Shown here: in pieces, positions 14,289 through 44,494 of the stretch
How positions within the stretch are numbered: position 1 is the first letter of the stretch
Layout: every line of letters starts with the position of its first letter
Source of the DNA: a virus
Lineage: Duplodnaviria; Caudoviricetes
DNA: 50,541 nucleotides
IMG/VR virus record: IMGVR_UViG_3300049926_000017
Location: 1 to 50,541 of that record
Direction: 5' to 3' (one strand)
Position numbers and translations under genes: made by a program
The notes under the pieces: generated by a model
Database searches by the model: none
Seen by the model: the letters and a program-made list of their open reading frames with translations, nothing else
Told to the model about the DNA's origin: nothing

Positions 14289-14616
14289 GTTCATCCGCAT
14301 CGCCGGGCTGAAGCACGGCATCGGGAAGGTCCGCAACCTCTCCATCGCCGCCGACGACGGCGTTGCCGACGAGCACCTTCACCGGTGCTACGGCACCTTC
14401 GAGCCCGGTGGGCCGCTCATCTGGCTCGACGCCGAGAACGGGCCGGAGCGCGACAAGGCGACGCTGGTCCACGAGGTCCTGCACGCCGTCATCAGCACCG
14501 CCCACATTGACATCGACAACGACACGGAGGAGACGCTGGTCAGCCGCATGTCGCCGCTCGTCCTCGACTTCATCCGCGCCAACCGTGGCGCCATCGCCTT
14601 CCTGCAGGAGTCCTGA
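14272..14616 (+). CDS. Small HExxH zinc metallopeptidase-like protein
   Basis: TLVHEVLHA with downstream EE. Confidence 0.8.
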   Translation: MRRLPKFIRIAGLKHGIGKVRNLSIAADDGVADEHLHRCYGTFEPGGPLIWLDAENGPERDKATLVHEVLHAVISTAHIDIDNDTEETLVSRMSPLVLDFIRANRGAIAFLQES

Positions 14617-14617
14617 C

Positions 14618-15235
14618 GTGACGCTCTGCACCTGCGACGCCCAGTTGCAGCCCCACGACCGAATGGAGAACGCCTGCGTGACACGCAACAACCCGCTCGA
14701 CGAGAGCGCATCGTGGCTTAGGGGGGACTGGATGCAACTGCACTCCATGCGCCGCTTCTACCCGATGGACCCTCGCGCCGAGGACATCGACCCGGAGGAC
14801 ATCGCCCACGCTTTGTCGCTCCTCTGCCGCTACGGCGGGCACATCGACCGCTTCTACTCGGTCGCCGAGCACTGCGTCCTCATGAGCCAGATCGTGGCCC
14901 CTGAGCACGCCCTGCACGCTCTACTGCACGACGCCACCGAGGCGTATGTCGTGGACGTGCCCCGGCCCCTGAAGCGGTACCTCTCCGACTACAAGGCCAT
15001 CGAGGCGTCGGTCTGGCTCGCCATCGCCGAGCGGTTCGGCATCGACCCGGTCCTGCCGGACGACGTCAACGACGCTGACACCCGCATCCTGCTCAACGAG
15101 ACGGCCGTGCTCATGCCCGGTGCCGGTGGTTGGGCCTCGACGCAGGGCCTCACCCCGCTGCCCGTCCACGTGACCGGGTGGCTGCCAGCACAGGCCAAGG
15201 TCGAGTACCTTCGCCGCCTCGCCGAGTTGACGTGA
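14618..15235 (+). CDS. HD-domain 5'-deoxynucleotidase (YfbR/YfdR-like)
   Basis: IAHALS..CRYGGH..YSVAEH..LLHDATEAY..D. Confidence 0.9.
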   Translation: MTLCTCDAQLQPHDRMENACVTRNNPLDESASWLRGDWMQLHSMRRFYPMDPRAEDIDPEDIAHALSLLCRYGGHIDRFYSVAEHCVLMSQIVAPEHALHALLHDATEAYVVDVPRPLKRYLSDYKAIEASVWLAIAERFGIDPVLPDDVNDADTRILLNETAVLMPGAGGWASTQGLTPLPVHVTGWLPAQAKVEYLRRLAELT

Positions 15236-15453
15236 GCCGTTACGGCGGCACCGTCGCCCTGCAGTACGAAGGGCCGGACAAGATTGAGCCCGAGAACCTT
15301 CTATCCAGTTTCGCAAACGGCGCCGACCGCCTCCTGCGGAACTACATCGAGTCGTGCGTCGCGCTCGGGCTCGACAGGTCCACCACCAGCCTGCACCTTG
15401 ACTACGACCACGGCAAGGGCCAGTACACCATGTCGTGGGAGGCATCCAAGTGA
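15232..15453 (+). CDS. Hypothetical protein
   Basis: GTGA coupling at both ends. Confidence 0.6.
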   Translation: MSRYGGTVALQYEGPDKIEPENLLSSFANGADRLLRNYIESCVALGLDRSTTSLHLDYDHGKGQYTMSWEASK

Positions 15454-16262
15454 ACATCGCACTCGTGGGACGCATGGGCTCTGGCAAGAGCACCGTCGCC
15501 CAACTGCTGCAGCGCCGGGGCTACGAGCGACACTCGTGGGCCGACGGCGTGCGCGACATCTTCAGCATGGCCTACGAGGTCATCACCCCGGCGAACTACG
15601 CCGAGGTCAAGGCGACCAACTACAAGGTCTTCGAGCACGGCACGGCCAAGTGGCGGACCGGCCGTGACTTGCTGCAGCGCATCGGTACCGACGCCATGCG
15701 CGCCAACGTGGACGAGGCGTTCTGGCTGAAGGCCGGGCTCCGTCGCATCGGCGACGTCCCGACCGTCAACGACGACACCCGCTTCATGAACGAGGCTGCC
15801 GCCCTGCGCGACCTCGGGTTCACCATCATCCGCATCACCCGGCCGGGCGTTGACCGGGAGGACCTGCACCCGAGCGAGACGGAGCAGACCAGCATCGTCG
15901 CCGACTTCGAGTTGTGGAACAACGGCACTATTGACGACCTTGACTACGCCATCGGGAACATCCTTGCCAGAGGCGACTCTCCCGCCTCTGGCAGGGTGAC
16001 CCGAGTGGCGACCTCCGTCGTGCCAGAGGAGGACATCGAGGAACTCGTCTTCGGTGGCAGCGTCTTCGCCGTCGGTCACGAGGTCGTCAGCGAGGAGTGG
16101 GGCACCGGTGACGGCGACGACATCTACGCTCTGCTCGGCAACCGGTTCGCTGTCGCCAACGTGAGCAGTCGTGGCGTATGGCCGCCGGACACTCGGGTCA
16201 ACGGGTTCCTGACCTGCTGCGGGCAGTCCGAGCACCCCATCGACTGCCCCCAGTGGAGGTAG
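15450..16262 (+). CDS. Deoxynucleoside monophosphate kinase with C-terminal extension
   Basis: GRMGSGKST P-loop, RDLLQRIGTD, DDTRFMNE, HPSE. Confidence 0.9.
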   Translation: MNIALVGRMGSGKSTVAQLLQRRGYERHSWADGVRDIFSMAYEVITPANYAEVKATNYKVFEHGTAKWRTGRDLLQRIGTDAMRANVDEAFWLKAGLRRIGDVPTVNDDTRFMNEAAALRDLGFTIIRITRPGVDREDLHPSETEQTSIVADFELWNNGTIDDLDYAIGNILARGDSPASGRVTRVATSVVPEEDIEELVFGGSVFAVGHEVVSEEWGTGDGDDIYALLGNRFAVANVSSRGVWPPDTRVNGFLTCCGQSEHPIDCPQWR

Positions 16263-29545: not shown

Positions 29546-30526
29546 CTAGATGGCGGTCGCGCCGGACTCGATGCGGACGTAGCGCGGGCCAGCCTCGTCG
29601 GTCAGGAAGGAGCCGAGGCGGCACTTCCAACCGATGGACATGACCTGAGCCAGTTCGTCACCGTGCCCACCCGGCAGCACGACGTGAGTCGTGATGTTGC
29701 CCCAGTCGCCGAAGGCGAAGGAGTCCGGGCCGCAGATGTACGTGCTGTGGACGTCGGCGGAACCGGCACCGGCGGCAGTGAACACGCGAGCGTTCGCCGA
29801 CTCCATGAACCGAACACCGGCGTACTTGCCGAGTTCACCCGCGAGGATGGCGGTCGAGGGGTTGTAGGTGTTGATGGCCTTCCAGCCACCGAGCGCCTCG
29901 TCCTCCTCGAAGTCGAAGACAACGGCCGGGTCCACGATGGCGTGGAAGGTCCCGTCCCCGAACATGGGGATGTTGTCGTACTTCATGCCCTGAGCGGCCC
30001 GCCGAAGCAGGGAGCCCGTGATGGTGTCCGTCGAGCCAACGTTGGCGCGAGCGGTCTGCCCACCGGCATAGATGACCGACGTGCCCGCCGCAAGGATGCG
30101 GCCGACATACTCGTCGATGGTCGCGGCAGCCTGCCGGGCAACGCGGACCGAAGCCTCCGACACGAGGCCGGAGCCAACGTCGAACTCGTCGATTGCGATG
30201 TCCGTCAGTTCGACCCGCTGGCCTGCCTGATAGGCAGTGAACTCCTCGTAGCCGAACGAGAGAGCCTGCGCCGTGGGGGCGACACCCTCCGTGAGCCACG
30301 GGGCGGTACCGGGGGTGACCGTGCCGGAGTTGGTGGTGACGGTCAGGTGCGGGACCCGGAGGAACCGCATGGTCGAGTTCGACCCCTTGACGAACGTCGC
30401 CTTGATGTAGCCAAGGCCGTCGCTCAGGTGCGGCAGCGAGGGCAGCAACTCCTGTTCGAGCGTCTTGCGGATGAGGGTGTTGACCGTCTTGTCGAAGTTG
30501 GTCGTCCCGGTATTCGTGGTCGTCAT
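29546..30526 (-). CDS. Major capsid protein (HK97 fold, N4-gp56-like)
   Basis: LTEGVAP, GELGKYAGVRFMES, DELAQ..IGWK; follows the scaffold gene. Confidence 0.9.
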   Translation of the reverse strand: MTTTNTGTTNFDKTVNTLIRKTLEQELLPSLPHLSDGLGYIKATFVKGSNSTMRFLRVPHLTVTTNSGTVTPGTAPWLTEGVAPTAQALSFGYEEFTAYQAGQRVELTDIAIDEFDVGSGLVSEASVRVARQAAATIDEYVGRILAAGTSVIYAGGQTARANVGSTDTITGSLLRRAAQGMKYDNIPMFGDGTFHAIVDPAVVFDFEEDEALGGWKAINTYNPSTAILAGELGKYAGVRFMESANARVFTAAGAGSADVHSTYICGPDSFAFGDWGNITTHVVLPGGHGDELAQVMSIGWKCRLGSFLTDEAGPRYVRIESGATAI

Positions 30527-30595
30527 GTCAGACGTTCCTTCTGCCCCTTGGGGCATTCATCCGGCCGGGTGGCCGGTGATGGTTTGGCGACTCGA

Positions 30596-31227: not shown

Positions 31228-34200
31228 CTACTTCAGTGCGTCGCGCAGTTCCTGCATGACGTAGTAGAGCGGCGTGCCGAGTTCGGCGCCGGTGACCTGC
31301 CCGGCCTGTGCGTCTTCGAGAGCCTTCTTCAACTGCTCGGCCGGGGTGTTCGGGCCGTTCAGTTCGTCGATGGCTCGACCGGCCCACGGCACGGTCGTCT
31401 CCAACGGGTTCAGTTTCTTGATGGTGTCCACGAAGGGCTGCGTGACGCTGAAGCCGGTCGGCTCCTGCCCGGAGGCGACGGCCTTGGCACGGTCGGTCCC
31501 CTGAGCGGCCACGTCCTTCATCCACTGCGGCGCGCTGGCGCTGATGTCCCACGGCAGGGTCGGCAGCATGTAGCCGAGGAAGGACATGGCCTGCGAGTGG
31601 CCCAACTTCTCGATCTGTGCGTCGAACTCGGGATCGTACTCCCGGCGCAGGGCAATCTCAGACTTGGCGTGCATCATGGCGGACAGGGCGCCACCGGTGC
31701 GGATGCCGAACGGACGCTTGGCGATGAACTGGACGACCTCGGGGGCCAACTTGCCCCACATGTAGGAGGCCGGGTAGAGGCCGAACATGGGGTGGTTGAT
31801 GGAGCGTTCGAGCATCGACCGGGACTGGGCGAAGTACTGCAGGCGGAAGGCGTCCTGCCACTTGCGCTGCATGTTCGAGACGGCCAACTGGTGGGCCATC
31901 GCCTCGGTGTAGTTGTACGGGGCGGCGGCGCCGGTGGGGATGCCAGCGATGTCCTGAATGAGCCCGGCGTGAATGGCGTTGTCGCCCTGCAGGAGGCCGT
32001 TCTCGACCGCCTTCTGGCTCCACTTGCCGAAGTGCTGGGCGACCCGGGCGACGTCGGGGTTGGACTCGACGTGCTTGCCCACTCCGACGAACTGCTGGGC
32101 GAAGTCGTCGATGGTCTTCTGCGGCAGGAGGCCCGCCTTCTGAGGGGCGAAGACGGTCCCGCGTTTGGCGGCGTTGGCCTCGCGGATAGTCTTCCCGGCC
32201 AGTGGGTTGACCTCCGGCTTGACCCATTCGCCGGTCTTCTGCAGGAAGGTCTGGAACTCCTCGACTACGGCGTGCAGCGCGGGCGCTCGGGTCGCGAGGA
32301 CGGCCATGTCGAGGTTCGGGTCGGTGGCGAGGCTGAAGAGTTCAGCGCCGAACTCAGGGCCGCTCTTGAAGGAGTACTCGCTCAACTGGGCGCGGCCACC
32401 GGTGACGTCCTTCTCGAACCGGACCATCATGTTGTGGTAGTCCTCGTACCCGGCGAGCGGGTGCTGGACGTAAACCTTGTTCCCGGCCTTGTCGAGCCAC
32501 GGCGTGGTGCCGTCGGACCGCGTTCGGAGTTTCTGCGGGCGGCGATCCACGTCGAACGCGTGCCCGGCCTCGTGCCGCATGACGCTCTGGATGTCGAGTT
32601 GCCCGGTCGCGAAGTCGGGGTTGTTGAACGGGACCCCGAACTCGGTATTGCGGGCGACCTGCATGGGCTTGCCGTCGGGTCCAATCTGGCTGAAGGTGTC
32701 GTACTGGCGGCCCCAGTCGTTCCGCTTCGTATGTGCGCCAGCCCAGTCCTCTTTCCACGAGACAGGGTCGGCGTACTGGCTGTTGAACAGGATGACCGGC
32801 TCACCGTCATCGGCGCCGAAGGTGATGGCGAAGGGGGCATCGCCCTCCTTCATGCCGAGCCCGACGAGCATGTTGTCGTCGAGGGACTTGGCATCACCGC
32901 TGAAGTCAACGACGTCGATGTGGAAGATGCGCAGTTCGGGGAACTGGTTCATTACGTCCTCGATGGGCTGAAGCAGGGCGTGCTGCAAGTCCGCAGGGAG
33001 GGCCATGATGCCGTCGCCAAGGCGGCGGGAGTAGGTGTGCTGGGTCGCGCCCACGTCTACGGTCGCGAAGTCCTGTGCGGGCACGTCTGGCCCGGATGGC
33101 ACCTGCTGGGCCTTCGGGACCTCGAACGGATGGCGGGCCTCGAAGTCTGCCGCCGGGTCCACCGCGTCGAGCGGCTTGGCGACATCGGCGCCGGGGATGA
33201 CATCGTTGCTGAAGTTCACGTAGGCGGTCTGACCGTGCGTCTCGGTGAGCAGGGCGCCGCGAGCGTCGGGGCTGTACATCTTGAAGTGGCTCGCCGCCGC
33301 GTTCAGTTCGCCGCGCGGCCCGAACGAGAAGCCCTCGGCGCTGTGGCCGAAGACGTCGTGAACGGCGCGGAACATCGTGTTCTGCTCGTTCGTCATGAGG
33401 GGGTGATCGGAGTCGGTCCCCTTGACGCGGAGTTCACCCTTGCGGATGTCCTTCAGCATGGCCTCGCGACCTAGCGCGTCGGCGGTGTACGGGTCGCCCT
33501 TCGCGACGGTGACCTTGATGCCCATACCCCCTTCGGACTTGGGCTTCGTCATGAAGTCGAACTGGTCGCGCGTCTCGACGACGAACTGCTGGTACGCCTT
33601 GTACGTGCGTTCGTCGATGCCTGCAGGCTGCGGCTTCAGGTCGGTGTCGGCAGCGTGCAGGCTCTTCGTGGTGGGGCGGCGACCGGTCTTCTCAAACGGC
33701 GTCTCGGGCAGCGCGCCGTACTCGTCGGCGACGGTCTGGTAGTGGGCCTCGTCCACCTTGTAGTGGCGAGCCTCGTCCATGGGCGTCACGCCCTTGTCGC
33801 GAAGGTACTTGTTGGCGCCGTTACGCAGGGCCTCGACGCCGCGAGTCGAGTCGGTCAGGACATCGTGGGCACCGGTGCCGTACTTGCCGTCCATGTACCC
33901 GAGGATACGGTCTGCCAACTGCCCCTCAGCGTCGGCGTCCCACATGGCCTTGATGTCCTTCTGGTGCAGCCGCACGTCGCCCTTCTTGACCGCCTTCGTC
34001 AGTTCCGGGCGGAACTCCATGAGCAGGGCGCGCTTGGCCGAGGGGTCAAGGTGCTGGCTGAAGACGGCCGACATCTGACGCACGAGGTCTTCGCGCTTCG
34101 CCGTGTTGGCAGCCGGAGCAGCCAACCGTGAGCGACCACGTCCGACCGTCTCGCCGACCTTGTTCTTGCGGAGCATCTTCAGCGGGCCGTCGAGCGAGCC

Positions 34201-37200
34201 GAGCAGGCCCTCCGTGCCGTCGATGATCCCGGGGTCGAAGACCTGCGACATGAAGTCCACCGGGGTCATGCCTCGAAGGTCGGCCCAGCCGCCCATGAGG
34301 TCCTGCAGCCCCTTGGACTCCTCGAAGGACAGGTTGTACCGCTTCTCCGCTTCCTTCCAGAAGCCGGTCCACGAGAACGTCAGGCTGTTCTCGACGCGGC
34401 CGATGTAGTCCTTGTCCGCGCCCAGCCGCCGCAGAAAGTCGCTGACCTCGTTCAGTTTGGCGGCGGGCTTGTCGGCCCCGGCGATGACGCGCCGGAGGTC
34501 GGCCATCGTCTTCACGGCGGTGCCGTCGGTGAACGAGCCCATGCTCTGCGCAACGTGGTCGAGGTCGAGGGCCTTCAGTTCGCCGATGTGGGAGGGCTTG
34601 TGCCACTCGCCGGTCTTGATGGCGTTGCCCCACTCGGCCTCCATCTTCGGGAGCCCCGCCATCCGCCCGGCCTTGTCGAGGCGGCGGACGACGATGTCGT
34701 TCGCGAACAGGTTCTCGTTGAGCAACTGCACCGCAAACTCGTCCTCGTCGAGCACGTGGCCCGCCATGGCGTCAGCGTTGACCTTCATGTCCTTCCAGAC
34801 GCCCGGCTGGACCTCTTCCCACGCGGAGCGGAGTTCCTTGCCGAGGCCCTTACGGAAGGTGCGCAGAGCGGCGATGCGCTTCACGCCCTGAACGTCCATG
34901 AGTTCCCCGGATCGAGCGGCGATCTTGGACAGCCGGGAGGTCGGGTTGTGCCACAGGCCCTTGACGCGGTCGCCCATGAGCATCTGAGCCGTGTACTCGG
35001 CCTGATCGAGGTCGGCTGCCCGGATGAGGCTGTTGTCCGTCATGCGACCGAGCAGGCGCTCCGTGGCCTTGTCAGCCTCGGACAGGGTGTCGGTCAGGAA
35101 GGGGGTGCTGATGCCGCGCTGGGTGTTCAGGACCCAAGGCTCTACCTTCTCCTGCAACTGGAAGATGGGGTTATAGCGGAACTTGACCGTCGGCCACGCA
35201 TGCTCGGCGATCTGCCCCGCGAAGTTCGACTGGTACCCGGTGGCGGCCGACAGCATGGTCTTCACACGCCCGGACAACTTCTGAGTGAGCCCGATGAAGC
35301 GCATGTCGCCGTCGTAGGCATTGAGGACCAGACGCAGGACGTCGGCCTCCTGTAGCGCACCGGCTCCGTTCAACATGGTCGCGGGAACGAGGCCCTCGTC
35401 CTTGATGGCCTTGAACAGGTCACCCTTGCCGAAGCCTCGCGGGCCGCTGTATCCCTGATGCTCCCGGGTGTACTCCTGTAGACGGTCCCACCACTTGTTC
35501 GCCACGTGCTCAGACAGGCCGAACTCCTTGTAGGCGCTGTGACTCGCGATGCTGACGAACCGCTGCCGGGCAATCTCGTGGACCTGTGCGCCGGTGACCT
35601 GAGCGCGGAGCATCGAGGACCCGGCCGCCACGAAGTCAACCATCTTCGCCGCCTTAGTGGCAGCGACGCCAATGATCGGAAGGCCAGCGATGTTGCGGGG
35701 CAGGTCGATGCCGGGGCGGTAGCCCTTGGCGCCGTTGGCTACGTGGTCAGCCCATGGCGCGGTCTTGCCGATGTACTTGCCGCCCTGCTCGTTGGCTCGC
35801 TCGATCCCCCACAGGAACTCCTCGCGGGGACGGAAGCCCAACTGGTACTGACCCGCGAAGGTCTTGTGCAGGTCCTGCAGGTCGTCCGGCAGGGTCTTCA
35901 ACTCGTCGTCGAGGAACTGCATCGGGAAGGACTCCATGTGGTCCTCGATGTGGCGGATGAGTCGCTGGACGGACTTGGCCCCGTTCGCAGAGTCCATGGT
36001 GATGTAGGCGAGTTCGGGGTACCGCTCCTGCCATTCGCGGGCGATCCCGAGAGCCTTCTTCGTGCTCTTAGCGGCCTTCAACTTCGAGAGGACGCTGCCA
36101 GCCCCGACCCGGGTGAGGGTCTTCGAGGAGAGCAGGACGACCTTGTCGAGGTCGAACGCGGCGGCGGCGGCGTGGCCCTCTGCCTTCGCGAGACTGGTCG
36201 AGTCGAGCAGGACCTTGTTCGCGTGGGCGTAGTAGGCGAAGTCGAGGAGGGACTTGCGCTCCTTCGACATCTTCGGCAGGAGTTCCATCCACTGCTCGGC
36301 CGTTCGCAGACCGAACATGGACTCCAACTTGCGGGCGAGTTTCAGGTGCTCGGCCTCGGTCCAGTGCTCGTCCTGCTTGACGATGTTGCGAACGATGTCG
36401 TCCTTCACCCAGCCAACGAGGTCCTTCATCCGCATGTGCTTGGCAGCGTCGGCGATGACGTCCTCGCGACGGGCGGCACCCTCGGCGGTCTGCAGGGCAC
36501 CAGCCAGACCCCGGTCGATGGAGGACGCCTGATGCAGGGAGAGGATGCCCTCACGGCCACGGTTCGTCATCCCAGTACCGAGGGCGTCGGCGTACTCGCT
36601 GGCGAGTCGGCCGGTCTTGTCGAGTTCGAGCAGGTCGTCGAAGTTCTTCATGCCCTCGATGGGGTTCATCGTCGTGTGCAGGGTCTTCTGAAGGGTGTCC
36701 GAGTACAGGTCCACCATCCGGGCGTTGCCGGGCATGTGCAGGTCGATGCCGTGGAGCGGGTCGATGAGGTACCGGGCCATCTTCGAGGCACGGCCGAGGT
36801 AGGTACCTTCGAGCCCGGTGTACGTCTGCCCGAAGGCGGTGACGAACCGCTGGGCTCGCTCGCTGCCTTGGAACGCTCGGTCAACGACGTTGAGGCGATT
36901 GATGGTCTGTCCGGTCCGGTAGCCCTGATACGACGTCACGGCCGCCTCACGCTCGACTGCTGTGGCCTTGGCGGCGTCCAACGCCTTCGAGGCGACCCGA
37001 GTGGCCTTGGCGGTCTTTGCGAGGCCCACAGCCTCTTCTGCAGCCTTGACGGCGGCGTTGGCCTCTTCAGCCAGTTGTGCGGCGCGCTCTGCACCGGCCG
37101 CGACCTCTGCTCCCTTCAGGCCAGCCTTGGCGAGGGCACCCATCCCGAAGGATGCGGCTACGTCCGGCGAGGCGACGGAGAGGGCGATAGTCAGAGTGGA

Positions 37201-38178
37201 GTCGTGGGCCGTCATGCCGGACGCGACGAGGAAGTCCATGGCCTGATCGGAGGTCCACGGCTCGGAACCGTCAGTCGGGTTCATCTTCTGTGCGACCAAC
37301 TGCTCGGCGGGGCTGGCCTCCTTCGACCCAGCGAACAGGCCGGTCCCTAGGAAGCCGGTGCTGACCGCTTCGCCGGAGCCGATCTGGCGAGCCTGCTCGG
37401 CGCGGTTATTCAGGCCGCCGAGGGTGCGCTGCCACCCGGCACCGATAAGGCCCATGCCGTCGAACATGGTGGTGACGGTGTCGGCCAGAGAGCCCGGGGC
37501 GGTGAACGAGCCGGGCAGAAGGTGAGGGTCCTTGACGTTCTCGGCCTTCGCGAAGTCGCGGATCGCCTGAGACTTGTAGTGCTCCTCGGTGCCGAGGACC
37601 CCGCTGCCGAACAGGCCCTTGTCACCGGCGTACTTCTGCTCGTTGGTGACGCCAGCCTCATCCTTGGCAGCCAACCAGTCGCGGAAGTCGGCGTTGTCCT
37701 TCTTCATCTGCTCGTACTGCGCGTCGAGCGGACCTGTGTCCTGACCGGGGATGCGCTCCAAGCCACCGCCGACGATGTCGCCAGCGTTCTTCAGCGTGTC
37801 ACCGATGCCGCCGGGGACTCCCCCGATACCACGGGCAAGCCCGCTAATCGGATCGGTCCCATCGGCGAGTGCGCCTGTCAGGCCACCGGTGAGGATGCCG
37901 GTGTGGGGTCCGAACAGGGCGGCCCCGAGCCCGTCGAGCAGCCCGCCCGTCGCGGTCGCGGCCTGCTTGGCAGACTCGACCGGATCGAGAGGGTTGACCT
38001 CAATGACTCCGGGCTGGACATCGGGCTGCCCGCCCGCGACGCCACTACCGCCGCCGGACGCGGTCGGCTGGTAGACGCCGCCGGACGAGCCGGTGTCGTA
38101 GAACTTTCGGGCTCCGGTCGAGCCGGAGGAGAACGGGCCAGACGGTGCCGACGTCCCGCCCGAGACGTAGCGGCTCAC
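31228..38178 (-). CDS. Giant ejection/polyvalent virion protein (2316 aa) with two zincin-like domains
   Basis: FRAVHDVFGH..GE..TET.GQ and RHEAGH..SEY..EF.AE motifs. Confidence 0.8.
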   Translation of the reverse strand: MSRYVSGGTSAPSGPFSSGSTGARKFYDTGSSGGVYQPTASGGGSGVAGGQPDVQPGVIEVNPLDPVESAKQAATATGGLLDGLGAALFGPHTGILTGGLTGALADGTDPISGLARGIGGVPGGIGDTLKNAGDIVGGGLERIPGQDTGPLDAQYEQMKKDNADFRDWLAAKDEAGVTNEQKYAGDKGLFGSGVLGTEEHYKSQAIRDFAKAENVKDPHLLPGSFTAPGSLADTVTTMFDGMGLIGAGWQRTLGGLNNRAEQARQIGSGEAVSTGFLGTGLFAGSKEASPAEQLVAQKMNPTDGSEPWTSDQAMDFLVASGMTAHDSTLTIALSVASPDVAASFGMGALAKAGLKGAEVAAGAERAAQLAEEANAAVKAAEEAVGLAKTAKATRVASKALDAAKATAVEREAAVTSYQGYRTGQTINRLNVVDRAFQGSERAQRFVTAFGQTYTGLEGTYLGRASKMARYLIDPLHGIDLHMPGNARMVDLYSDTLQKTLHTTMNPIEGMKNFDDLLELDKTGRLASEYADALGTGMTNRGREGILSLHQASSIDRGLAGALQTAEGAARREDVIADAAKHMRMKDLVGWVKDDIVRNIVKQDEHWTEAEHLKLARKLESMFGLRTAEQWMELLPKMSKERKSLLDFAYYAHANKVLLDSTSLAKAEGHAAAAAFDLDKVVLLSSKTLTRVGAGSVLSKLKAAKSTKKALGIAREWQERYPELAYITMDSANGAKSVQRLIRHIEDHMESFPMQFLDDELKTLPDDLQDLHKTFAGQYQLGFRPREEFLWGIERANEQGGKYIGKTAPWADHVANGAKGYRPGIDLPRNIAGLPIIGVAATKAAKMVDFVAAGSSMLRAQVTGAQVHEIARQRFVSIASHSAYKEFGLSEHVANKWWDRLQEYTREHQGYSGPRGFGKGDLFKAIKDEGLVPATMLNGAGALQEADVLRLVLNAYDGDMRFIGLTQKLSGRVKTMLSAATGYQSNFAGQIAEHAWPTVKFRYNPIFQLQEKVEPWVLNTQRGISTPFLTDTLSEADKATERLLGRMTDNSLIRAADLDQAEYTAQMLMGDRVKGLWHNPTSRLSKIAARSGELMDVQGVKRIAALRTFRKGLGKELRSAWEEVQPGVWKDMKVNADAMAGHVLDEDEFAVQLLNENLFANDIVVRRLDKAGRMAGLPKMEAEWGNAIKTGEWHKPSHIGELKALDLDHVAQSMGSFTDGTAVKTMADLRRVIAGADKPAAKLNEVSDFLRRLGADKDYIGRVENSLTFSWTGFWKEAEKRYNLSFEESKGLQDLMGGWADLRGMTPVDFMSQVFDPGIIDGTEGLLGSLDGPLKMLRKNKVGETVGRGRSRLAAPAANTAKREDLVRQMSAVFSQHLDPSAKRALLMEFRPELTKAVKKGDVRLHQKDIKAMWDADAEGQLADRILGYMDGKYGTGAHDVLTDSTRGVEALRNGANKYLRDKGVTPMDEARHYKVDEAHYQTVADEYGALPETPFEKTGRRPTTKSLHAADTDLKPQPAGIDERTYKAYQQFVVETRDQFDFMTKPKSEGGMGIKVTVAKGDPYTADALGREAMLKDIRKGELRVKGTDSDHPLMTNEQNTMFRAVHDVFGHSAEGFSFGPRGELNAAASHFKMYSPDARGALLTETHGQTAYVNFSNDVIPGADVAKPLDAVDPAADFEARHPFEVPKAQQVPSGPDVPAQDFATVDVGATQHTYSRRLGDGIMALPADLQHALLQPIEDVMNQFPELRIFHIDVVDFSGDAKSLDDNMLVGLGMKEGDAPFAITFGADDGEPVILFNSQYADPVSWKEDWAGAHTKRNDWGRQYDTFSQIGPDGKPMQVARNTEFGVPFNNPDFATGQLDIQSVMRHEAGHAFDVDRRPQKLRTRSDGTTPWLDKAGNKVYVQHPLAGYEDYHNMMVRFEKDVTGGRAQLSEYSFKSGPEFGAELFSLATDPNLDMAVLATRAPALHAVVEEFQTFLQKTGEWVKPEVNPLAGKTIREANAAKRGTVFAPQKAGLLPQKTIDDFAQQFVGVGKHVESNPDVARVAQHFGKWSQKAVENGLLQGDNAIHAGLIQDIAGIPTGAAAPYNYTEAMAHQLAVSNMQRKWQDAFRLQYFAQSRSMLERSINHPMFGLYPASYMWGKLAPEVVQFIAKRPFGIRTGGALSAMMHAKSEIALRREYDPEFDAQIEKLGHSQAMSFLGYMLPTLPWDISASAPQWMKDVAAQGTDRAKAVASGQEPTGFSVTQPFVDTIKKLNPLETTVPWAGRAIDELNGPNTPAEQLKKALEDAQAGQVTGAELGTPLYYVMQELRDALK

Positions 38179-40901: not shown

Positions 40902-42863
40902 CTAGCGCCGACCCAACTTCTGCTGCGTCATGATGCGGCCCTTGGCGGTGCCGTTCTGGATCATGCCCTGCATGACCGGCTGGTTGTCGGGCGGCGTGAC
41001 GAGCGGAGCGCCACTGGCGTTGGCGGGCTGCGCCTCGGCCGGGGCTCCGGGGATCGCGGGCGGCATGGCCTGCGTGTCCGGGCTCTGCATGCCGGTCGAG
41101 TTCTGCTGGCCGCCGAGAGCCTGACGGAGGGCGTCCTGACCGGAGGCGACCTGTCCCTGAGCCTGAGCGGTAGCACCGGCCGGTGCCTGCAGGTTGAGGG
41201 ACTGAAGGGCCGCCATCAACTGGGCCATGACCTGCACGTCTGCCGGGAAGAGAGTGGCGTCGGTGCGCTCCTCACGGATGAGGTCCTGCTCCGTCTCGGG
41301 GTCGTCGATACCGACGATGTTCATGGCCGTGCGCTGCGACCACAACTTGTTGTTCATGGCGTTGATGGCGCGCTGCATCGTCTCCATGTCGTCACGCGGC
41401 GACAGGGACGGGTCCGTAATCTCCAAGAAGCCGCCGCCACGGGCGACGAGGGCCTTCACGTCGGAGTTCTTCTGAGCGTACACGGAGAGGGCGAGTTCCC
41501 ACACCTTGCGGCGCCACGTGTACAGCAACTTGCGTCGGATGCTGATGCGGCTCTCGTAGTTCGCGATCAAGGCGTTGATGGCCTTCGAGGACGACAGGAC
41601 CTGCGCCGGGGCGAGTCCCAGCAGGAGGTCGTTCAGGCCCGAGACGGCCGCCTTCAGCCGGTCGATCCGGCCGAGGTACTGCTCCAACTGGAACTGGGCG
41701 ATGAACGGAGTGATGACCTCGATCCGGTTGCCGGGTCCCGGGGCGATCACGCCTCCGACGACAGGCTTCATGCCAGTCGGCACGCGGGTCGGGGCGTCGG
41801 GTCCGACCAACTGGAAGGAGTCACCACGCGTGACGTTGGCGATCATCTGGCTGCCGCGAGTTACGGCCTCCATTTCCTCGCGAAGGAGGGGCTCGATGTC
41901 GTACAGGTCAGGGCGTCCGCCGGGCATACCGGGGACGAACGTGTTGAACAGCGGGACGTACGGCAGAGTGCCCTTGTACTCGGGATACTCGGTGGGCTGG
42001 CGGATGATGACATTCCCGGCGACGACGTAGTTCATCGTCTTCATGCGCTTGAACTTGCCCTTGTACCACTCGGCCTCGCGGTACCAGTAGTCCCACACTT
42101 CGACCTTGGCGCCCTGCATGACGTTGATCGTCTTCGAGGGGATGTCGTCCCACGAGGACTGGAACACCATGGGCACGTTATCGTTCCCGTCCTTGCCGGG
42201 GCTTACCTCGACGCCGAACTGCTCGGTCAGGGCATTGGGCTCGTAGAACATGCGGAAGGCGGCCCATTCGAGTTCGTCGAAGTTGTCGTTCTTCCAGCCG
42301 AAGTAGAGGTTCCGGGGCTGTTGGATTACCTCAACGCACGGGCGACCGTGGCCGTCCTCGGCGAGAGGGTCCCAGTAGACGCGGGCGGCGGTCCGACCGT
42401 ACAGGCCCTTGACCGTGGTCGCCTTGCCGAACTTCAACTCGAAGTCTTCGGTCCGCTTCCATGCCGTGTACAGGCGCTCGACGGCGCTCGCTGCGTCGCG
42501 GGCCTCGTCGGTGTTGTCGGTGGCGAGGATGTCCTCGATGGGTTCGACGGCCTGCAGTGCGGCCGGGATGTCCACGTAGGCGGCAGGCAGGTTGACGGAG
42601 ACGTGCTGTCGGCCGTTGACCTTGGCGCTCTCGTGCTCCGGCCACAGGTCCGCACCGGACTTCTCATTGACGGTGGCGGCATAGTACAGCCCGTCAGCGC
42701 GGTCGCACCACTCGCGGAATATCGCGTGATCGAGTTCGACGCCCTTGACCCGGATGAGGAGTTTGGTGAGCAGTTCCTTCGTCGTCTCGTCGGACGCCAG
42801 TCGGACGCCCCGGACGAGCGTCATGTTTGCGAAGGGGCCGTTGTAGTCGGCCGAGCCCGCCAT
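40902..42863 (-). CDS. Portal protein
   Basis: Follows TerL; 653 aa; LPYVP..PG..GRPD..I..L pattern; Q/P-rich tail. Confidence 0.85.
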   Translation of the reverse strand: MAGSADYNGPFANMTLVRGVRLASDETTKELLTKLLIRVKGVELDHAIFREWCDRADGLYYAATVNEKSGADLWPEHESAKVNGRQHVSVNLPAAYVDIPAALQAVEPIEDILATDNTDEARDAASAVERLYTAWKRTEDFELKFGKATTVKGLYGRTAARVYWDPLAEDGHGRPCVEVIQQPRNLYFGWKNDNFDELEWAAFRMFYEPNALTEQFGVEVSPGKDGNDNVPMVFQSSWDDIPSKTINVMQGAKVEVWDYWYREAEWYKGKFKRMKTMNYVVAGNVIIRQPTEYPEYKGTLPYVPLFNTFVPGMPGGRPDLYDIEPLLREEMEAVTRGSQMIANVTRGDSFQLVGPDAPTRVPTGMKPVVGGVIAPGPGNRIEVITPFIAQFQLEQYLGRIDRLKAAVSGLNDLLLGLAPAQVLSSSKAINALIANYESRISIRRKLLYTWRRKVWELALSVYAQKNSDVKALVARGGGFLEITDPSLSPRDDMETMQRAINAMNNKLWSQRTAMNIVGIDDPETEQDLIREERTDATLFPADVQVMAQLMAALQSLNLQAPAGATAQAQGQVASGQDALRQALGGQQNSTGMQSPDTQAMPPAIPGAPAEAQPANASGAPLVTPPDNQPVMQGMIQNGTAKGRIMTQQKLGRR

Positions 42864-44494
42864 TATCCCCTCACCGGCCGGAGCCAGTTGTCGAGGTCGC
42901 GCTTCTCGTGGTCATCCTGATACATCCCAAAGAGGTCGAAGTCGCCGGTCACTTCAGAGCCGTCAGAGGTTCGACGGAGCAGATGCACGGCGCAAACGAG
43001 TGCCATGACCGCGTCCTGTTCGATGCCCCTGTCCTCCAACTTGTACCCCAGTAGTTGCCGCCGGACCAACAACCAGATGCCCGTGCGAGGCAGGATGAGC
43101 CTGCCCTCGTCGATTAGTGTGCGAAGATCGCCCAGCAGGCGCTTCTTCTTCTGCGCCGTGCCGCCGAACTCAACGTTCGTGACGTTCGGGACCTCGAAGT
43201 CAAGAGCCTCACGGAACATCTTGCCGCCGAAACCCGTGGCGTCAGTTGCAGTGTAACATGACGCCTTCAGGCGCGGGTTGTCGTAGCGATTGAAGCCGTC
43301 CGCGACCATGTTGACCACGCTCTCGGTGCTCTTCTGACCCGACCGCTTCTCGGCGTGGACACCAACCAGCATCGGCCGGGTCGGGTCCTGCTTGTTCGGG
43401 ACCACCTTCAGGCAGATGGCCCATGCCGAGTCCTGTGACTTGGCCGGGTCCACGCCTTGCAGGTAGAGGCCGCCCTTCTGGACGCCGCTCGTCTCGGGAA
43501 GCCGCTCGTCGAAGATGTCCTCGACGTTCTCGCCGTTGAAGTAGGCGGCCGAGGTCTGCAGGAAGAAGCCGTCCACGTTCTGCTTGATCGTGCGCTCGTC
43601 CATGTCGGCAGTCAGGCGGACGAACATGTCGTAGGTCAGGCCGTAGCCCACGTTGTCCCGGGTGCTCATCCGCATCGAGAACCACGACGGCAGTCTGTCG
43701 TTGCTGGCCGGGTTGCCCTGCTCCCAGTTGTCGCCGAAGACCGTGCCCAGCGTCTCGGACGGCGTGGACGCCATGAGCAACTGGCCGCCGGTGCCGAGGC
43801 GCCGGAAGCCGAAGACCTCCTTGATGAGGAAGTCGAGGTTCTTCTCCAACCCCGCCTCGTCGAAGGACAGCAGGTGCATGTCCTTGCCCAGCGACCCGAG
43901 GGCCTTCTCGCCGGTCGTCCTGAAGTGGACCTCGGCGCCGCCGACCTCAGCGGTGAACCTGATCCAGCGGTAGTCGCCGTACTCCTTCAGGTCCCATACC
44001 GCGATGGAGCGGTCCTTCGTCAGAGGGCAGCCGCGCCCCTGCTGGCCCTCGTGGAGCCCGGACAGGATGCGGACGATGTCGTTGAAGACGAGGTCGGCGA
44101 CCTCTTGGCTGATGCCGAAGTGGTAGGCGTGGTACTCCATCTTCAGCCAGCGGGCCGCCTCCTCCTCGTTCGAGGGGATAGGCCGGTTCAACTTACGCAG
44201 GCAGGAGTAGATGATGATGAGCGCCAGCAGCGACGTCTTGCCTGCCCGGTTGCCAGACGTCAGCATGAGCGTCAGGAACTTCGCGGTGAACGGGCTAGAC
44301 GGGTGGCGCAACAGGACGGCGGCAGCGAAGGCCAACTGCCCGACGTGAACGTCGAGGCCCATGGCGTGGCGGGCGAACGCCCGGAAGTCGCGAGCCGCTT
44401 CGAGCCCATCCTGCGACAGGCCGAAGTACTTGACGAGGACCCAGTCCTGCTCGGCCCACGACAACTTGCGGTACTCGAACCGCTTCAGTTTCAC
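42863..44494 (-). CDS. terL: Terminase large subunit
   Basis: Walker A GNRAGKT, Walker B LSFDEAG, STP, nuclease GVDPAKSQD and DAVMAL. Confidence 0.92.
   Translation of the reverse strand: MKLKRFEYRKLSWAEQDWVLVKYFGLSQDGLEAARDFRAFARHAMGLDVHVGQLAFAAAVLLRHPSSPFTAKFLTLMLTSGNRAGKTSLLALIIIYSCLRKLNRPIPSNEEEAARWLKMEYHAYHFGISQEVADLVFNDIVRILSGLHEGQQGRGCPLTKDRSIAVWDLKEYGDYRWIRFTAEVGGAEVHFRTTGEKALGSLGKDMHLLSFDEAGLEKNLDFLIKEVFGFRRLGTGGQLLMASTPSETLGTVFGDNWEQGNPASNDRLPSWFSMRMSTRDNVGYGLTYDMFVRLTADMDERTIKQNVDGFFLQTSAAYFNGENVEDIFDERLPETSGVQKGGLYLQGVDPAKSQDSAWAICLKVVPNKQDPTRPMLVGVHAEKRSGQKSTESVVNMVADGFNRYDNPRLKASCYTATDATGFGGKMFREALDFEVPNVTNVEFGGTAQKKKRLLGDLRTLIDEGRLILPRTGIWLLVRRQLLGYKLEDRGIEQDAVMALVCAVHLLRRTSDGSEVTGDFDLFGMYQDDHEKRDLDNWLRPVRG

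What the first reader, a model, noticed from the sequence alone, without database searches (positions are those of the whole stretch)
32120..33610. Peptidase nested inside a peptidase-like domain in the 2316-aa virion protein
Seen: one domain has DPY..HPLM..N..FRAVHDVFGH (33343-33360)..GPRGE..MYS..TETHGQ..VNF. Its closing motif, TVFAPQKAGLLP, appears only about 350 aa later, near 32.14 kb. The intervening segment has its own zincin signature RHEAGH (32560-32574)...LSEYS..PEFGAELF. From my recollection of this family, the FAxQKxGLLP motif normally follows VNF closely. Inference: a domain insertion gives two metal-binding effectors that are injected with the DNA, perhaps for anti-defence or host takeover as in polyvalent proteins.
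Basis: partly seen in the sequence, partly recalled or inferred. Interest (0 to 1): 0.7.

Follow-up and report, generated by a model that had tools for sequence, protein, structure and literature searches.

The report
Zinc protease nested inside unknown phage domain
A giant head-region protein of an uncultivated phage carries a zinc protease inserted into a loop of a second, uncharacterised enzyme-like domain, and related phages use the same loop for other enzymes or leave it empty.

Summary
In the 2316-aa ORF (31228-38178, minus strand) every quoted motif is present. A roughly 250-aa domain is split: residues 1447-1658 and 2003-2023 match a profile of 23 stand-alone homologues colinearly. About 333 residues (1660-1992) lie between the two pieces.

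Homologues settle the nesting.
- 18 full-length orthologues keep the insert.
- Two have an empty site, with 34 residues between TETHGQ and YAEQK.
- One carries a different cargo containing a GNAT domain.
- Three have the zincin but no outer domain.

The insert folds as an anthrax-LF / Pro-Pro-endopeptidase / MtfA-type zincin (Z 9.2, 7.3, 6.7). HExxH and Tyr are invariant in 19 of 19 sequences and the third-ligand Glu is kept in 17 of 19.

The outer domain is not shown to be peptidase-like. It has no Pfam family. Its best PDB fold match is Z 2.8, with only 15 of 48,161 chains at Z 2 or more.

Verdict: a real nested architecture. It is a new variant within phage polyvalent proteins, where zincins are already the commonest domain. 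Virion packaging, injection and protease activity are inferred, not shown.

The parts
31228..38178 (-). Giant ORF, 2316 aa (P0001). It lies between a putative portal gene (40902-42863) plus a 900-aa ORF and the major capsid gene (29546-30556).
   Evidence: GC3 is 0.88. The capsid gene matches phrog_1357 at 1.5e-38; the large terminase matches phrog_2 at 42863-44494; the portal call rests on a weak SPP1_portal match (E 6.6e-4, below cutoff).
33205..33840 (-). Outer domain, N-terminal part (residues 1447-1658). Contains DPY, HPLM, FRAVHDVFGH (33343-33372), GPRGE, MYS, TETHGQ (33229-33246) and VNF.
   Evidence: PHROG 3170, E 6.6e-21, residues 1521-1657. The HMM of 23 stand-alone homologues matches positions 13-59 to residues 1447-1492 and positions 60-202 to residues 1521-1658 (146.5 bits, 3.5e-46). 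Model pLDDT is mostly above 90.
32203..33201 (-). Inserted segment, residues 1660-1992 (about 333 aa): a Pro-rich linker followed by the zincin domain.
   Evidence: It is absent from the orthologues P0021 and P0022 and replaced by other sequence in P0020. GC is 0.657 and GC3 0.883, like the flanks.
32221..33168 (-). Zincin fold core, residues 1671-1986 (model residues 212-527).
   Evidence: VIA-align: 1yqy_A (anthrax LF catalytic domain) Z 9.2, rmsd 4.7, 183 aligned; 4l7a_B Z 7.3; PPEP-2 6fpc_A Z 7.3; PPEP-3 Z 7.0; the MtfA-like 3dl1_A Z 6.7.
32560..32574 (-). HEAGH (H1869, E1870, H1873): predicted zinc-binding histidines and catalytic base.
   Evidence: Invariant in 19 of 19 insert-bearing sequences. 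It lies in model helix 404-420.
32335..32382 (-). SEYSFKSGPEFGAELF (residues 1933-1948). Y1935, E1942 and E1946 form a Tyr-x6-Glu-x3-Glu pattern: predicted oxyanion Tyr and third zinc ligand.
   Evidence: Y1935 is kept in 19/19, E1942 in 17/19 (Asp in the other 2) and E1946 in 18/19. They lie in model helices 475-479 and 481-492. PPEP-3 has Tyr190 and Glu197 at the same spacing (PMC12828418, passages).
32110..32172 (-). Outer domain, closing segment (residues 2003-2023), including TVFAPQKAGLLP (32122-32157).
   Evidence: HMM positions 197-217 resume here, colinear with the first part. Alone the match is weak (-1.7 bits, iE 0.59). K and L of the motif are invariant across 22 aligned orthologues.

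Best explanation
The 2316-aa gene product is a giant head-region protein of the polyvalent, internal-virion or ejection type, in a complete 50.5-kb uncultivated phage genome.

Residues about 1447-1658 plus about 2003-2035 form one autonomous domain of roughly 250 aa. This domain belongs to a phage-centred family (PHROG 3170; HPxx...FRAVHDxFGH...GxxGE...H...TETxGQ...[FY]AxQKxGLLP). Its fold and activity are unknown. The invariant His, Asp and Glu residues suggest a metal-dependent enzyme.

A self-contained zinc metallopeptidase of about 333 aa has been inserted into the loop before the domain's last conserved segment. The peptidase is of the anthrax-LF / Pro-Pro-endopeptidase / MtfA type, and its HExxH, Tyr and Glu catalytic residues are intact.

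The loop, and more broadly the stretch between the conserved N-terminal 1430 residues and the C-terminal 300 residues, behaves as an exchangeable cargo slot. Orthologues carry the outer domain alone, the zincin alone, the nested pair, the nested pair plus a further module, or the outer domain with a cargo that contains a GNAT domain.

I therefore read the zincin as an accessory enzymatic cargo. It most likely acts as a protease on host proteins after delivery with the DNA. Processing of the giant protein itself is the second choice.

Shown: the nesting, the fold class, conservation of the catalytic motifs, and the alternative architectures. Inferred: metal binding, proteolysis, presence in the virion, ejection and the target.
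For: Nesting
- The alignment of the window segment with 21 orthologues places the insert between VNFSD and T[VI]xExN..G[ST][VI]YAxQKAGLLP.
- P0021 and P0022 have 34 residues from TETHGQ to YAEQK. P0020 has 512 residues there with no HExxH, and a GNAT match at 2025-2074 (PF00583, E 2e-4, 22.0 bits against a cutoff of 20.7).
- The stand-alone-domain HMM matches colinearly on both sides of the insert in P0001. It matches as one stretch in P0021 and P0022.
- The outer domain exists on its own: 23 proteins of 206-270 aa.
- The zincin exists without the outer domain: in P0085, P0086 and P0087, BLASTP to P0001 jumps from about residue 1430 to about 1703 (or 1831) and then continues to the C-terminus.

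Zincin
- The fold matches are listed under 'parts'. Nearly all of the 50 rows shown are zincins.
- HExxH, Y1935, E1942 and E1946 are conserved and sit on two consecutive helices.
- The language-model neighbours are phage zinc-metallopeptidase, Peptidase_M90 and ATLF-bearing clusters, all at 0.93.

Evolution
- On a tree built from the flanks only, the 19 zincin-bearing rows form one side of a 100% SH-aLRT branch.
- With 26 rows, the 20 nested forms form one side of a 96% branch.

Context
- Gene order on the minus strand is large terminase, putative portal, a 900-aa ORF, the giant ORF, a 211-aa ORF, then the capsid gene.
- The record is a virus contig rated 100% complete.
- Distant relatives of the outer domain sit in proteins carrying ART-PolyVal and LPD domains.
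- Iyer et al. 2017 (PMC5512222; sections 8, 23 and 29 and other passages read) describe the zincin-like MPTase as the commonest domain of polyvalent proteins. They propose autoprocessing or effector roles for it.
Against: - No sequence-level link to any peptidase family. The insert has no Pfam match at E up to 10 and no NCBIfam match. phmmer against PDB sequences found only chance TFAM hits at E above 1.
- Z 9.2 is only modestly above the best Z of 7-8 that the tool reports as typical for models without clear matches. Foldseek gave nothing at E of 0.001 or better.
- The model rests on 22 sequences. I could not inspect coordinates, so the active-site geometry, the closeness of the insert's two ends and the packing of the closing segment were not verified.
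- The closing segment alone scores below significance in the HMM search (iE 0.59).
- Nothing here shows that the protein is in virions. The only hint is that Rhodococcus phage E3 gp205, a homologue of the outer domain, is annotated 'structural protein'.
- The accessory-cargo reading is an inference from presence and absence among orthologues. The tree is unrooted, so gain and loss cannot be ordered.
Confidence: 0.6

Rival explanations
1. The nested zincin is a self-processing protease. It cuts the giant polyprotein into functional pieces in the procapsid or after ejection, and does not attack host proteins.
For: Iyer et al. 2017 (PMC5512222, section 8, read) favour autoproteolytic processing for many polyvalent-protein MPTases, citing P1 DdrB. 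The zincin is retained in 19 of 22 close orthologues and in three more distant ones that lack the outer domain.
Against: The orthologues P0020, P0021 and P0022 keep the same conserved N- and C-terminal regions without any HExxH in this slot. Processing by this domain therefore cannot be essential to the scaffold. The same loop holds a GNAT domain in P0020, which cannot cleave. No cleavage sites are known.
Confidence: 0.3
2. The zincin is a cell-envelope hydrolase of an ejection protein. It would cut peptidoglycan peptides or envelope proteins to let the DNA channel through.
For: In cyanopodophage A4 the ejection protein gp28 carries lytic transglycosylase and metallopeptidase domains (PMC12002296, passages). 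Some relatives that carry the outer domain are annotated 'lysin' or contain an SLT domain.
Against: The fold matches are LF, PPEP and MtfA-type protein endopeptidases. None of the wall-peptidase families I would expect from memory (M15, M23) appears in that list. No lysozyme or transglycosylase domain was found in P0001.
Confidence: 0.1
3. The outer domain is itself a very divergent zincin-like peptidase. The protein would then carry a peptidase within a peptidase.
For: Of the 15 chains with Z of 2 or more for the stand-alone model, four are zincin-like: YbeY 7y7o at 2.6, 1oz9 at 2.2, abylysin 4jiu at 2.1 and ArdC 6sna at 2.0. Foldseek lists selecase at probability 0.21 and TMt 0.38. The His-rich helix HDxxGH is followed by a helix bearing GE.
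Against: All those Z values lie far below the tool's background of 7-8. 0 of the 487 Foldseek-ranked chains reached Z 2 on re-alignment. The motif is HDxxGH, not HExxH. No Pfam family matched in 23 of 23 stand-alone members apart from four single chance hits.
Confidence: 0.12
4. The insert is a catalytically dead, structural zincin relic, like the PA-binding domain of lethal factor.
For: Degenerate LF-like domains (the N-terminal domains of LF, EF and Certhrax) are among the fold matches at Z 6.3-6.7.
Against: H1869, E1870, H1873 and Y1935 are kept in 19 of 19 sequences, and E1942 in 17 of 19 with Asp in the other two. This holds across sequences that are only 39-70% identical to the window segment.
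Confidence: 0.08

Closest known systems
Zincin-like MPTase domains of phage and plasmid polyvalent proteins (Iyer et al. 2017, PMC5512222)
   Same: An HExxH helix plus a downstream Glu helix, with a variable insert between the two helices. It sits in a giant multidomain phage protein encoded among head genes. The paper's MPTase of N4 vRNAP was likewise linked to lethal factor by HHpred.
   Different: In that paper the domains are strung in tandem. The word 'inserted' does not occur in the text, and the six uses of 'insert' that I saw concern small inserts within folds. Here the zincin sits inside another domain. No Pfam model of any kind matches it.
Anthrax lethal factor catalytic domain, Pro-Pro endopeptidases PPEP-1/2/3, and MtfA. 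Their MEROPS family numbers (M34, M90) are recalled from memory; Pfam names ATLF and Peptidase_M90 are as printed.
   Same: Best fold matches: Z 9.2, 7.3, 7.0 and 6.7. HExxH is followed by Tyr-x6-Glu, as in PPEP-3 with His153, Glu154, His157, Tyr190 and Glu197 (PMC12828418, passages).
   Different: There is no detectable sequence similarity. The spacing from HExxH to Tyr is 62 residues, against 33 in PPEP-3. The context is a phage head protein, not a secreted toxin or enzyme.
PHROG 3170, the stand-alone HDxxGH/TETxGQ proteins (for example mycobacteriophage Alice gp99 and Rhodococcus phage E3 gp205)
   Same: The outer domain matches this family at E 6.6e-21. It keeps nearly all residues that are invariant in the stand-alone proteins.
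   Different: Those proteins have 5-30 residues where the window protein has a 333-aa zincin. The family has no assigned function or fold.
Ejection proteins of podophages that carry hydrolytic domains (cyanopodophage A4 gp28; PMC12002296)
   Same: A large internal capsid protein that carries a metallopeptidase.
   Different: In A4 the domains are in tandem and paired with a transglycosylase. No homology to it was tested here.

Membership tests
Zincin / gluzincin metallopeptidase fold (LF, PPEP, MtfA type) | HExxH on an alpha-helix | tested here: met
   HEAGH at 1869-1873 lies in model helix 404-420. It is invariant in 19/19 sequences.
Zincin / gluzincin metallopeptidase fold (LF, PPEP, MtfA type) | Third zinc ligand Glu on the next conserved helix, with a catalytic Tyr seven residues upstream | tested here: met
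   Y1935-x6-E1942-x3-E1946 lies on model helices 475-479 and 481-492, kept in 19/19, 17/19 and 18/19 sequences. PPEP-3 has Tyr190 and Glu197. Geometry was not inspected.
Zincin / gluzincin metallopeptidase fold (LF, PPEP, MtfA type) | Overall fold similarity to solved members | tested here: met
   1yqy_A Z 9.2 with 183 residues aligned; 4l7a_B 7.3; 6fpc_A 7.3; 9g0j_A 7.0; 3dl1_A 6.7. Zincins fill almost the whole list. Foldseek gave weak matches only.
Pfam ATLF (PF07737) and Peptidase_M90 (PF06167) sequence families | Match to the family profile above its gathering score | tested here: not met
   No Pfam family at E up to 10 for the insert or for its C-terminal 201 aa. Only language-model neighbours carry these families.
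Zincin metallopeptidase | Zinc binding and peptide-bond hydrolysis | not testable with these tools
   Needs purified protein.
Polyvalent protein (Iyer et al. 2017) | Several domains of disparate activity in one giant polypeptide, encoded among virion genes | tested here: inconclusive
   Two domains were recognised here (outer domain and zincin), and the gene lies between portal and capsid genes. About 1750 residues remain without any assignment. Relatives of the outer domain carry ART-PolyVal and LPD22.
Polyvalent protein (Iyer et al. 2017) | Packaged in the virion and delivered with the DNA | not testable with these tools
   Only gene position and one homologue's 'structural protein' label bear on this.
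PHROG 3170 (outer domain family) | Profile match and retention of the family's invariant residues | tested here: met
   E 6.6e-21. The custom HMM gives 146.5 bits. DPY, HP, FRAVHDxFGH, GE, H, TE.GQ and QK..LP are kept; the family's Arg in TETRGQ is His in this clade.
Zincin-like peptidase (applied to the outer domain) | HExxH or a variant motif in a zincin fold | tested here: inconclusive
   The motif is HDxxGH. The best zincin-like matches are at Z 2.0-2.6, and 0 of 487 chains reached Z 2 on re-alignment.
Aromatic amino-acid hydroxylase catalytic core (applied to the outer domain) | Fold similarity and a 2-His-1-carboxylate site | tested here: inconclusive
   Foldseek lists PAH, TPH and TH at probability 0.14 or less and TM about 0.15. 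None reached Z 2 with VIA-align.

The most novel reading that the evidence does not exclude
The HDxxGH/TETxGQ domain is a new metalloenzyme fold, and its last surface loop serves phages as an evolvable socket for cargo. Whole effector domains (zincin, GNAT, a ParB-like module) are plugged into this loop, swapped and stacked, and so ride into the host on a conserved giant ejection protein. The same enzyme also works alone in phages and in bacterial conflict loci.
Probability: 0.25. Interest if true: 0.7.

Novelty: new variant of a known kind. Interest (0 to 1): 0.5.

Why it matters
Polyvalent phage proteins are thought to deliver batteries of enzymes at the first moment of infection, and almost none have been tested.

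This case offers a natural series of orthologues that differ only in what sits in one slot. The slot is empty, or holds a zincin, or a zincin plus another module, or a cargo with a GNAT domain, or a zincin without its host domain. Such a series is a ready-made design for asking what each cargo does and how domains are exchanged.

The work also flags a widespread enzyme-like domain with no Pfam family and no detectable PDB fold relative. It occurs in 213 phage records and 73 bacterial loci. That makes it a reasonable target for structure and activity work.

Tried and rejected
1. Pfam on the full protein and on four segments: nothing apart from a chance WH2 hit. NCBIfam: nothing.

2. Single-protein scan of viral contigs for related loci: 0 loci.

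3. Profile of the stand-alone outer domain against PDB sequences: 0 matches at E up to 10. phmmer of the insert against PDB: only TFAM at E above 1, which I treat as chance.

4. My idea that the outer domain is related to aromatic amino-acid hydroxylases. This rested on an HxxxGH...E pattern recalled from memory and on weak Foldseek rows. No such chain reached Z 2, so I dropped it as unsupported.

5. HD-phosphohydrolase reading of the 'HD' motif. No HD-domain chain appears among the 15 matches with Z of 2 or more. The absence is noted here only and is not an exclusion.

6. Exhaustive HMMER search with the insert: 12 hits in 1.84 billion representatives. At least ten of them are orthologues or fragments of them. 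P0088 is a 949-aa protein with no HExxH that I did not place. No stand-alone zincin ancestor was identified.

7. ESM Atlas for the outer domain: only unnamed viral or actinobacterial clusters.

8. Large terminase against the phage collection: no match, so the phage could not be placed taxonomically.

9. The paper on Rhodococcus phage E3 proteomics was not in the library, so the 'structural protein' label is unverified.

10. Literature searches for the motif 'FRAVHD' (0 papers) and for nested domains in ejection proteins found no description of this architecture.

11. Earlier notes of this scan: none for this genome or this segment.
Full report
**The observation**

The window is a complete virus record of 50,541 bases. 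The region of the finding lies in one ORF on the minus strand, 31228-38178, 2316 aa, with GC3 of 0.88.
- DPY 1562
- HPLM 1592
- FRAVHDVFGH 1603-1612 (window 33343-33372)
- GPRGE 1620
- MYS 1634
- TETHGQ 1645
- VNF 1654
- HEAGH 1869-1873 (32560-32574), the only HExxH in the protein
- LSEYS 1932
- PEFGAELF 1941-1948
- TVFAPQKAGLLP 2008-2019 (32122-32157)

Chance does not explain this. 0.075 HExxH are expected per protein of this composition. 205 of 20000 shuffles had one in a 333-aa slice. 0 of 20000 shuffles had the closing motif anywhere.

**Is it one domain that has been split?**

PHROG 3170 (unknown function) matches residues 1521-1657 only (E 6.6e-21). A tblastn search of 50,697 phage records found 213 records. 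All of them cover only about residues 1428-1695 of the query, and 199 are Mycobacterium phages.

In those homologues the closing motif follows directly. BD1 gp16 reads TETRGQNSWVNFGPYGDANRADPANTTFADQKVGLLP. Alice gp99 reads SETKGQNSSLIYNGQFGPQKIGIM.

A search of 5.8 billion proteins with residues 1430-2060 gave 78 hits. Eighteen of them (P0002-P0019, 2225-2511 aa, 37-70% identical) are colinear orthologues.

Where my regexes caught both TETxGQ and the QK motif, the spacing falls into clear groups:

| Group | Proteins with both motifs caught | Spacing (residues) |
|---|---|---|
| Insert-bearing sequences | 12 | 312-540 |
| P0021 and P0022 | 2 | 34 |
| P0020 | 1 | 512, with no HExxH |
| Distant polyvalent-type proteins (57 in all) | 21 | 19-50 |

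The other 36 distant proteins were not matched by one or both regexes.

The alignment shows the break point exactly. It lies between ...VNFSD and T[VI]xExN..G[ST][VI]YAxQKAGLLP.

I then built an HMM from 23 stand-alone proteins of 206-270 aa. These were found with residues 1460-1662 in the 'shorter' length class. Of the 32 hits in that search I left out:
- five fragments of giant proteins (P0080, P0083, P0089, P0090, P0094)
- one 159-aa piece (P0091)
- three longer multidomain proteins (P0116-P0118)

The HMM matches P0001 in three colinear pieces:

| HMM positions | P0001 residues | Score |
|---|---|---|
| 13-59 | 1447-1492 | 5.0 bits |
| 60-202 | 1521-1658 | 146.5 bits, E 3.5e-46 |
| 197-217 | 2003-2023 | -1.7 bits, iE 0.59 |

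In P0021 and P0022 the same HMM matches as one stretch, positions 59-214/215. The last piece in P0001 is too short to be significant alone. It does resume where the profile left off, and its residues are invariant among orthologues.

It supports an insertion of about 333 residues (1660-1992, window 32203-33201). The insert has the same GC and GC3 as its flanks, so it is not recent.

**What the insert is**

No Pfam or NCBIfam model matches it.

An AlphaFold2 model of residues 1460-2040, built with 22 sequences, has mean pLDDT 86.0 and pTM 0.67. Foldseek against the PDB gave nothing at E of 0.001 or better. Its weak rows include PPEP-1 and PPEP-3 (TMt 0.41-0.52) and anthrax lethal factor.

The Foldseek-independent VIA-align search of 48,161 chains put these on top:

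| Chain | Protein | Z |
|---|---|---|
| 1yqy_A | Lethal factor catalytic domain (rmsd 4.7, 183 aligned, model 212-527) | 9.2 |
| 4l7a_B | Putative zinc peptidase | 7.3 |
| 6fpc_A | PPEP-2 | 7.3 |
| 9g0j_A | PPEP-3 | 7.0 |
| 3dl1_A | MtfA-like | 6.7 |

The degenerate LF-like domains of Certhrax, EF and LF follow at Z 6.3-6.7. Below them come thermolysin, M1 aminopeptidases, neprilysin, Wss1, SprT and YbeY at about Z 4-5. The tool warns that Z 7-8 is a common best score for unmatched models. The score alone is therefore moderate, and the weight comes from the list being almost purely zincins.

The catalytic residues fall where the fold needs them.
- HEAGH lies in model helix 404-420.
- Y1935 and E1942/E1946 lie in helices 475-479 and 481-492.
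- Among the 19 insert-bearing sequences, H1869, E1870, H1873 and Y1935 are kept in 19/19, E1942 in 17/19 (Asp in the other two) and E1946 in 18/19.
- PPEP-3 uses His153, Glu154 and His157, an oxyanion Tyr190 and a third ligand Glu197. That is the same Tyr-x6-Glu spacing (PMC12828418, passages read).

A language-model search independently placed the insert next to phage clusters named zinc metallopeptidase, Peptidase_M90 (90% of members) and ATLF (12% of members), all at 0.93. This is a lead only.

An exhaustive HMMER search found 12 hits in 1.84 billion representatives. At least ten are orthologues of the giant protein or fragments of them. I did not place P0088. By sequence, then, the zincin appears confined to this family of giant proteins.

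**What the outer domain is**

- 23 of 23 stand-alone members have no Pfam family, apart from four single chance hits.
- NCBIfam gives nothing.
- A profile search of PDB sequences gives 0 matches at E up to 10.
- A model of the stand-alone protein P0099 (pLDDT 83.9, pTM 0.83) has no Foldseek match in the PDB; the best E is 0.59.
- In the wide VIA-align search only 15 of 48,161 chains reach Z 2, and the best is 2.8.
- 0 of the 487 Foldseek-ranked chains reach Z 2 on re-alignment.

Four of the 15 weak matches are zincin-like: YbeY twice, abylysin and ArdC, at Z 2.0-2.6. That is a faint hint only.

Against predicted viral structures, 19 matches have E of 0.001 or better. All are uncharacterised phage proteins. 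They include stand-alone forms and proteins that also contain head-morphogenesis or ART-PolyVal domains.

The invariant residues are DPY, HP, FRAVHDxFGH, GE, H, TE.GQN and QK..LP. They look like an enzyme active site, probably metal-dependent. That is inference.

**Alternative architectures**

The slot is variable.
- **P0020.** It has about 480 residues of other sequence in the same loop. These end in a GNAT domain (PF00583, E 2e-4, 22.0 bits against a cutoff of 20.7, residues 2025-2074).
- **P0011 and P0012.** They have the zincin plus about 190 further residues.
- **P0018.** It has the zincin plus a piece with a ParB-like DGNHR motif. The TIGR00180 match has E 0.0011, far below its cutoff.
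- **P0085, P0086 and P0087.** In these more distant orthologues BLASTP to P0001 covers the N-terminal region: about 1430 residues in P0085 and P0086, and residues 610-1322 in P0087. It then jumps to the zincin and continues to the C-terminus. Both halves of the outer domain are missing.
- **P0084.** It has a degenerate outer domain plus the zincin.

I built trees from the flanking columns only, with the insert or the whole cassette dropped.
- In the 22-row tree, the 19 zincin-bearing rows form one side of a 100% SH-aLRT branch.
- In the 26-row tree, the 20 nested rows form one side of a 96% branch.
- In that tree P0085 and P0086 come next. P0020-P0022 and the long-branched P0087 lie outside.

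The trees are unrooted, so I cannot say which architecture came first.

**Context and mechanism**

Gene order on the minus strand is: primase/helicase, endonuclease, large terminase (42863-44494), putative portal (40902-42863), a 900-aa ORF, the giant ORF, a 211-aa ORF, the major capsid protein (29546-30556), then large tail-type ORFs. That is where minor head and ejection proteins are usually encoded.

Distant relatives of the outer domain sit in proteins of 1300-4000 aa with ART-PolyVal, LPD22, DUF3293, DUF7178 or SLT domains. These are the polyvalent proteins of Iyer et al. 2017 (PMC5512222; sections 8, 23 and 29 and other passages read). That paper reports the zincin-like MPTase as the commonest polyvalent domain. 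It linked the N4 vRNAP version to lethal factor by HHpred. It proposes either autoproteolytic processing or a direct effector role.

I favour an accessory effector role, for two reasons. Orthologues with the same conserved N- and C-terminal regions do without the zincin. The same slot also accepts a GNAT domain, which cannot process anything. Self-processing remains a serious rival.

A wall- or envelope-directed role is a weaker rival. Its precedent is cyanopodophage A4 gp28 (PMC12002296, passages). A dead relic is unlikely given the conservation.

**Comparison and novelty**

Zincins in giant phage proteins are known, and domain insertions in general are known. What I did not find in print is this zincin nested in this uncharacterised domain with alternative occupants of the same loop. 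The searches were made, and 'inserted' does not occur in PMC5512222.

I rate it a new variant of a known kind, of moderate interest. The outer domain is arguably the more novel object. It has no family, no fold relative, and is widespread. The scan's earlier notes hold nothing on this genome or segment. I did not test that.

Noticed in passing
L005-L077 (bacterial genome loci, mostly Micromonosporaceae): The stand-alone outer domain occurs in 73 bacterial loci. A homologous N6-DNA-methylase gene lies beside it in 56 of 73, a Ser/Thr protein kinase in 55 of 73 and a UvrD-like helicase in 44 of 73. This may be a conserved defence-like or housekeeping neighbourhood, or simply shared ancestry within one bacterial family.
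   Followed up: partly
L007:3838-10319, also L006 and L013: In three loci the stand-alone domain gene sits between a TCAD9-like protein and a 1245-aa protein ending in a CHAT (caspase-like) protease domain, whose start overlaps its stop. That is a context typical of a conflict system.
   Followed up: partly
P0020 residues about 1626-2108; P0018 about 2040-2100; P0011 and P0012 about 190 aa after the zincin: Other occupants of the same loop are a roughly 480-aa segment ending in a GNAT domain, a weak ParB-like module (DGNHR motif) and an unassigned 190-aa module.
   Followed up: partly
window 33619-33702 (residues 1493-1520): There is a second, small lineage-specific insertion of about 28 residues in the outer domain, between HMM positions 59 and 60.
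   Followed up: no
window 42863-44494: The large terminase has no tblastn match at E of 1e-5 or better in 50,697 deposited phage genomes. Most structural ORFs have no PHROG. The phage lineage appears unrepresented among deposited phages.
   Followed up: no
window 14363-16262: Adjacent genes match a deoxyribonucleoside 5'-monophosphate phosphatase (phrog_318, 4.4e-66) and a dNMP kinase (phrog_139, 1.3e-41). They may be nucleotide-pool or DNA-modification functions.
   Followed up: no
window 37800-38178 (residues 1-125 of the giant protein): The N-terminus is Gly/Ser/Pro-rich and of low complexity. About 1750 residues of the protein have no family assignment at all.
   Followed up: no
L023:5902-12117: In Kibdelosporangium the stand-alone domain lies near a DDE transposase and a TrwB/FtsK-like coupling protein. 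This suggests carriage on a conjugative element.
   Followed up: no
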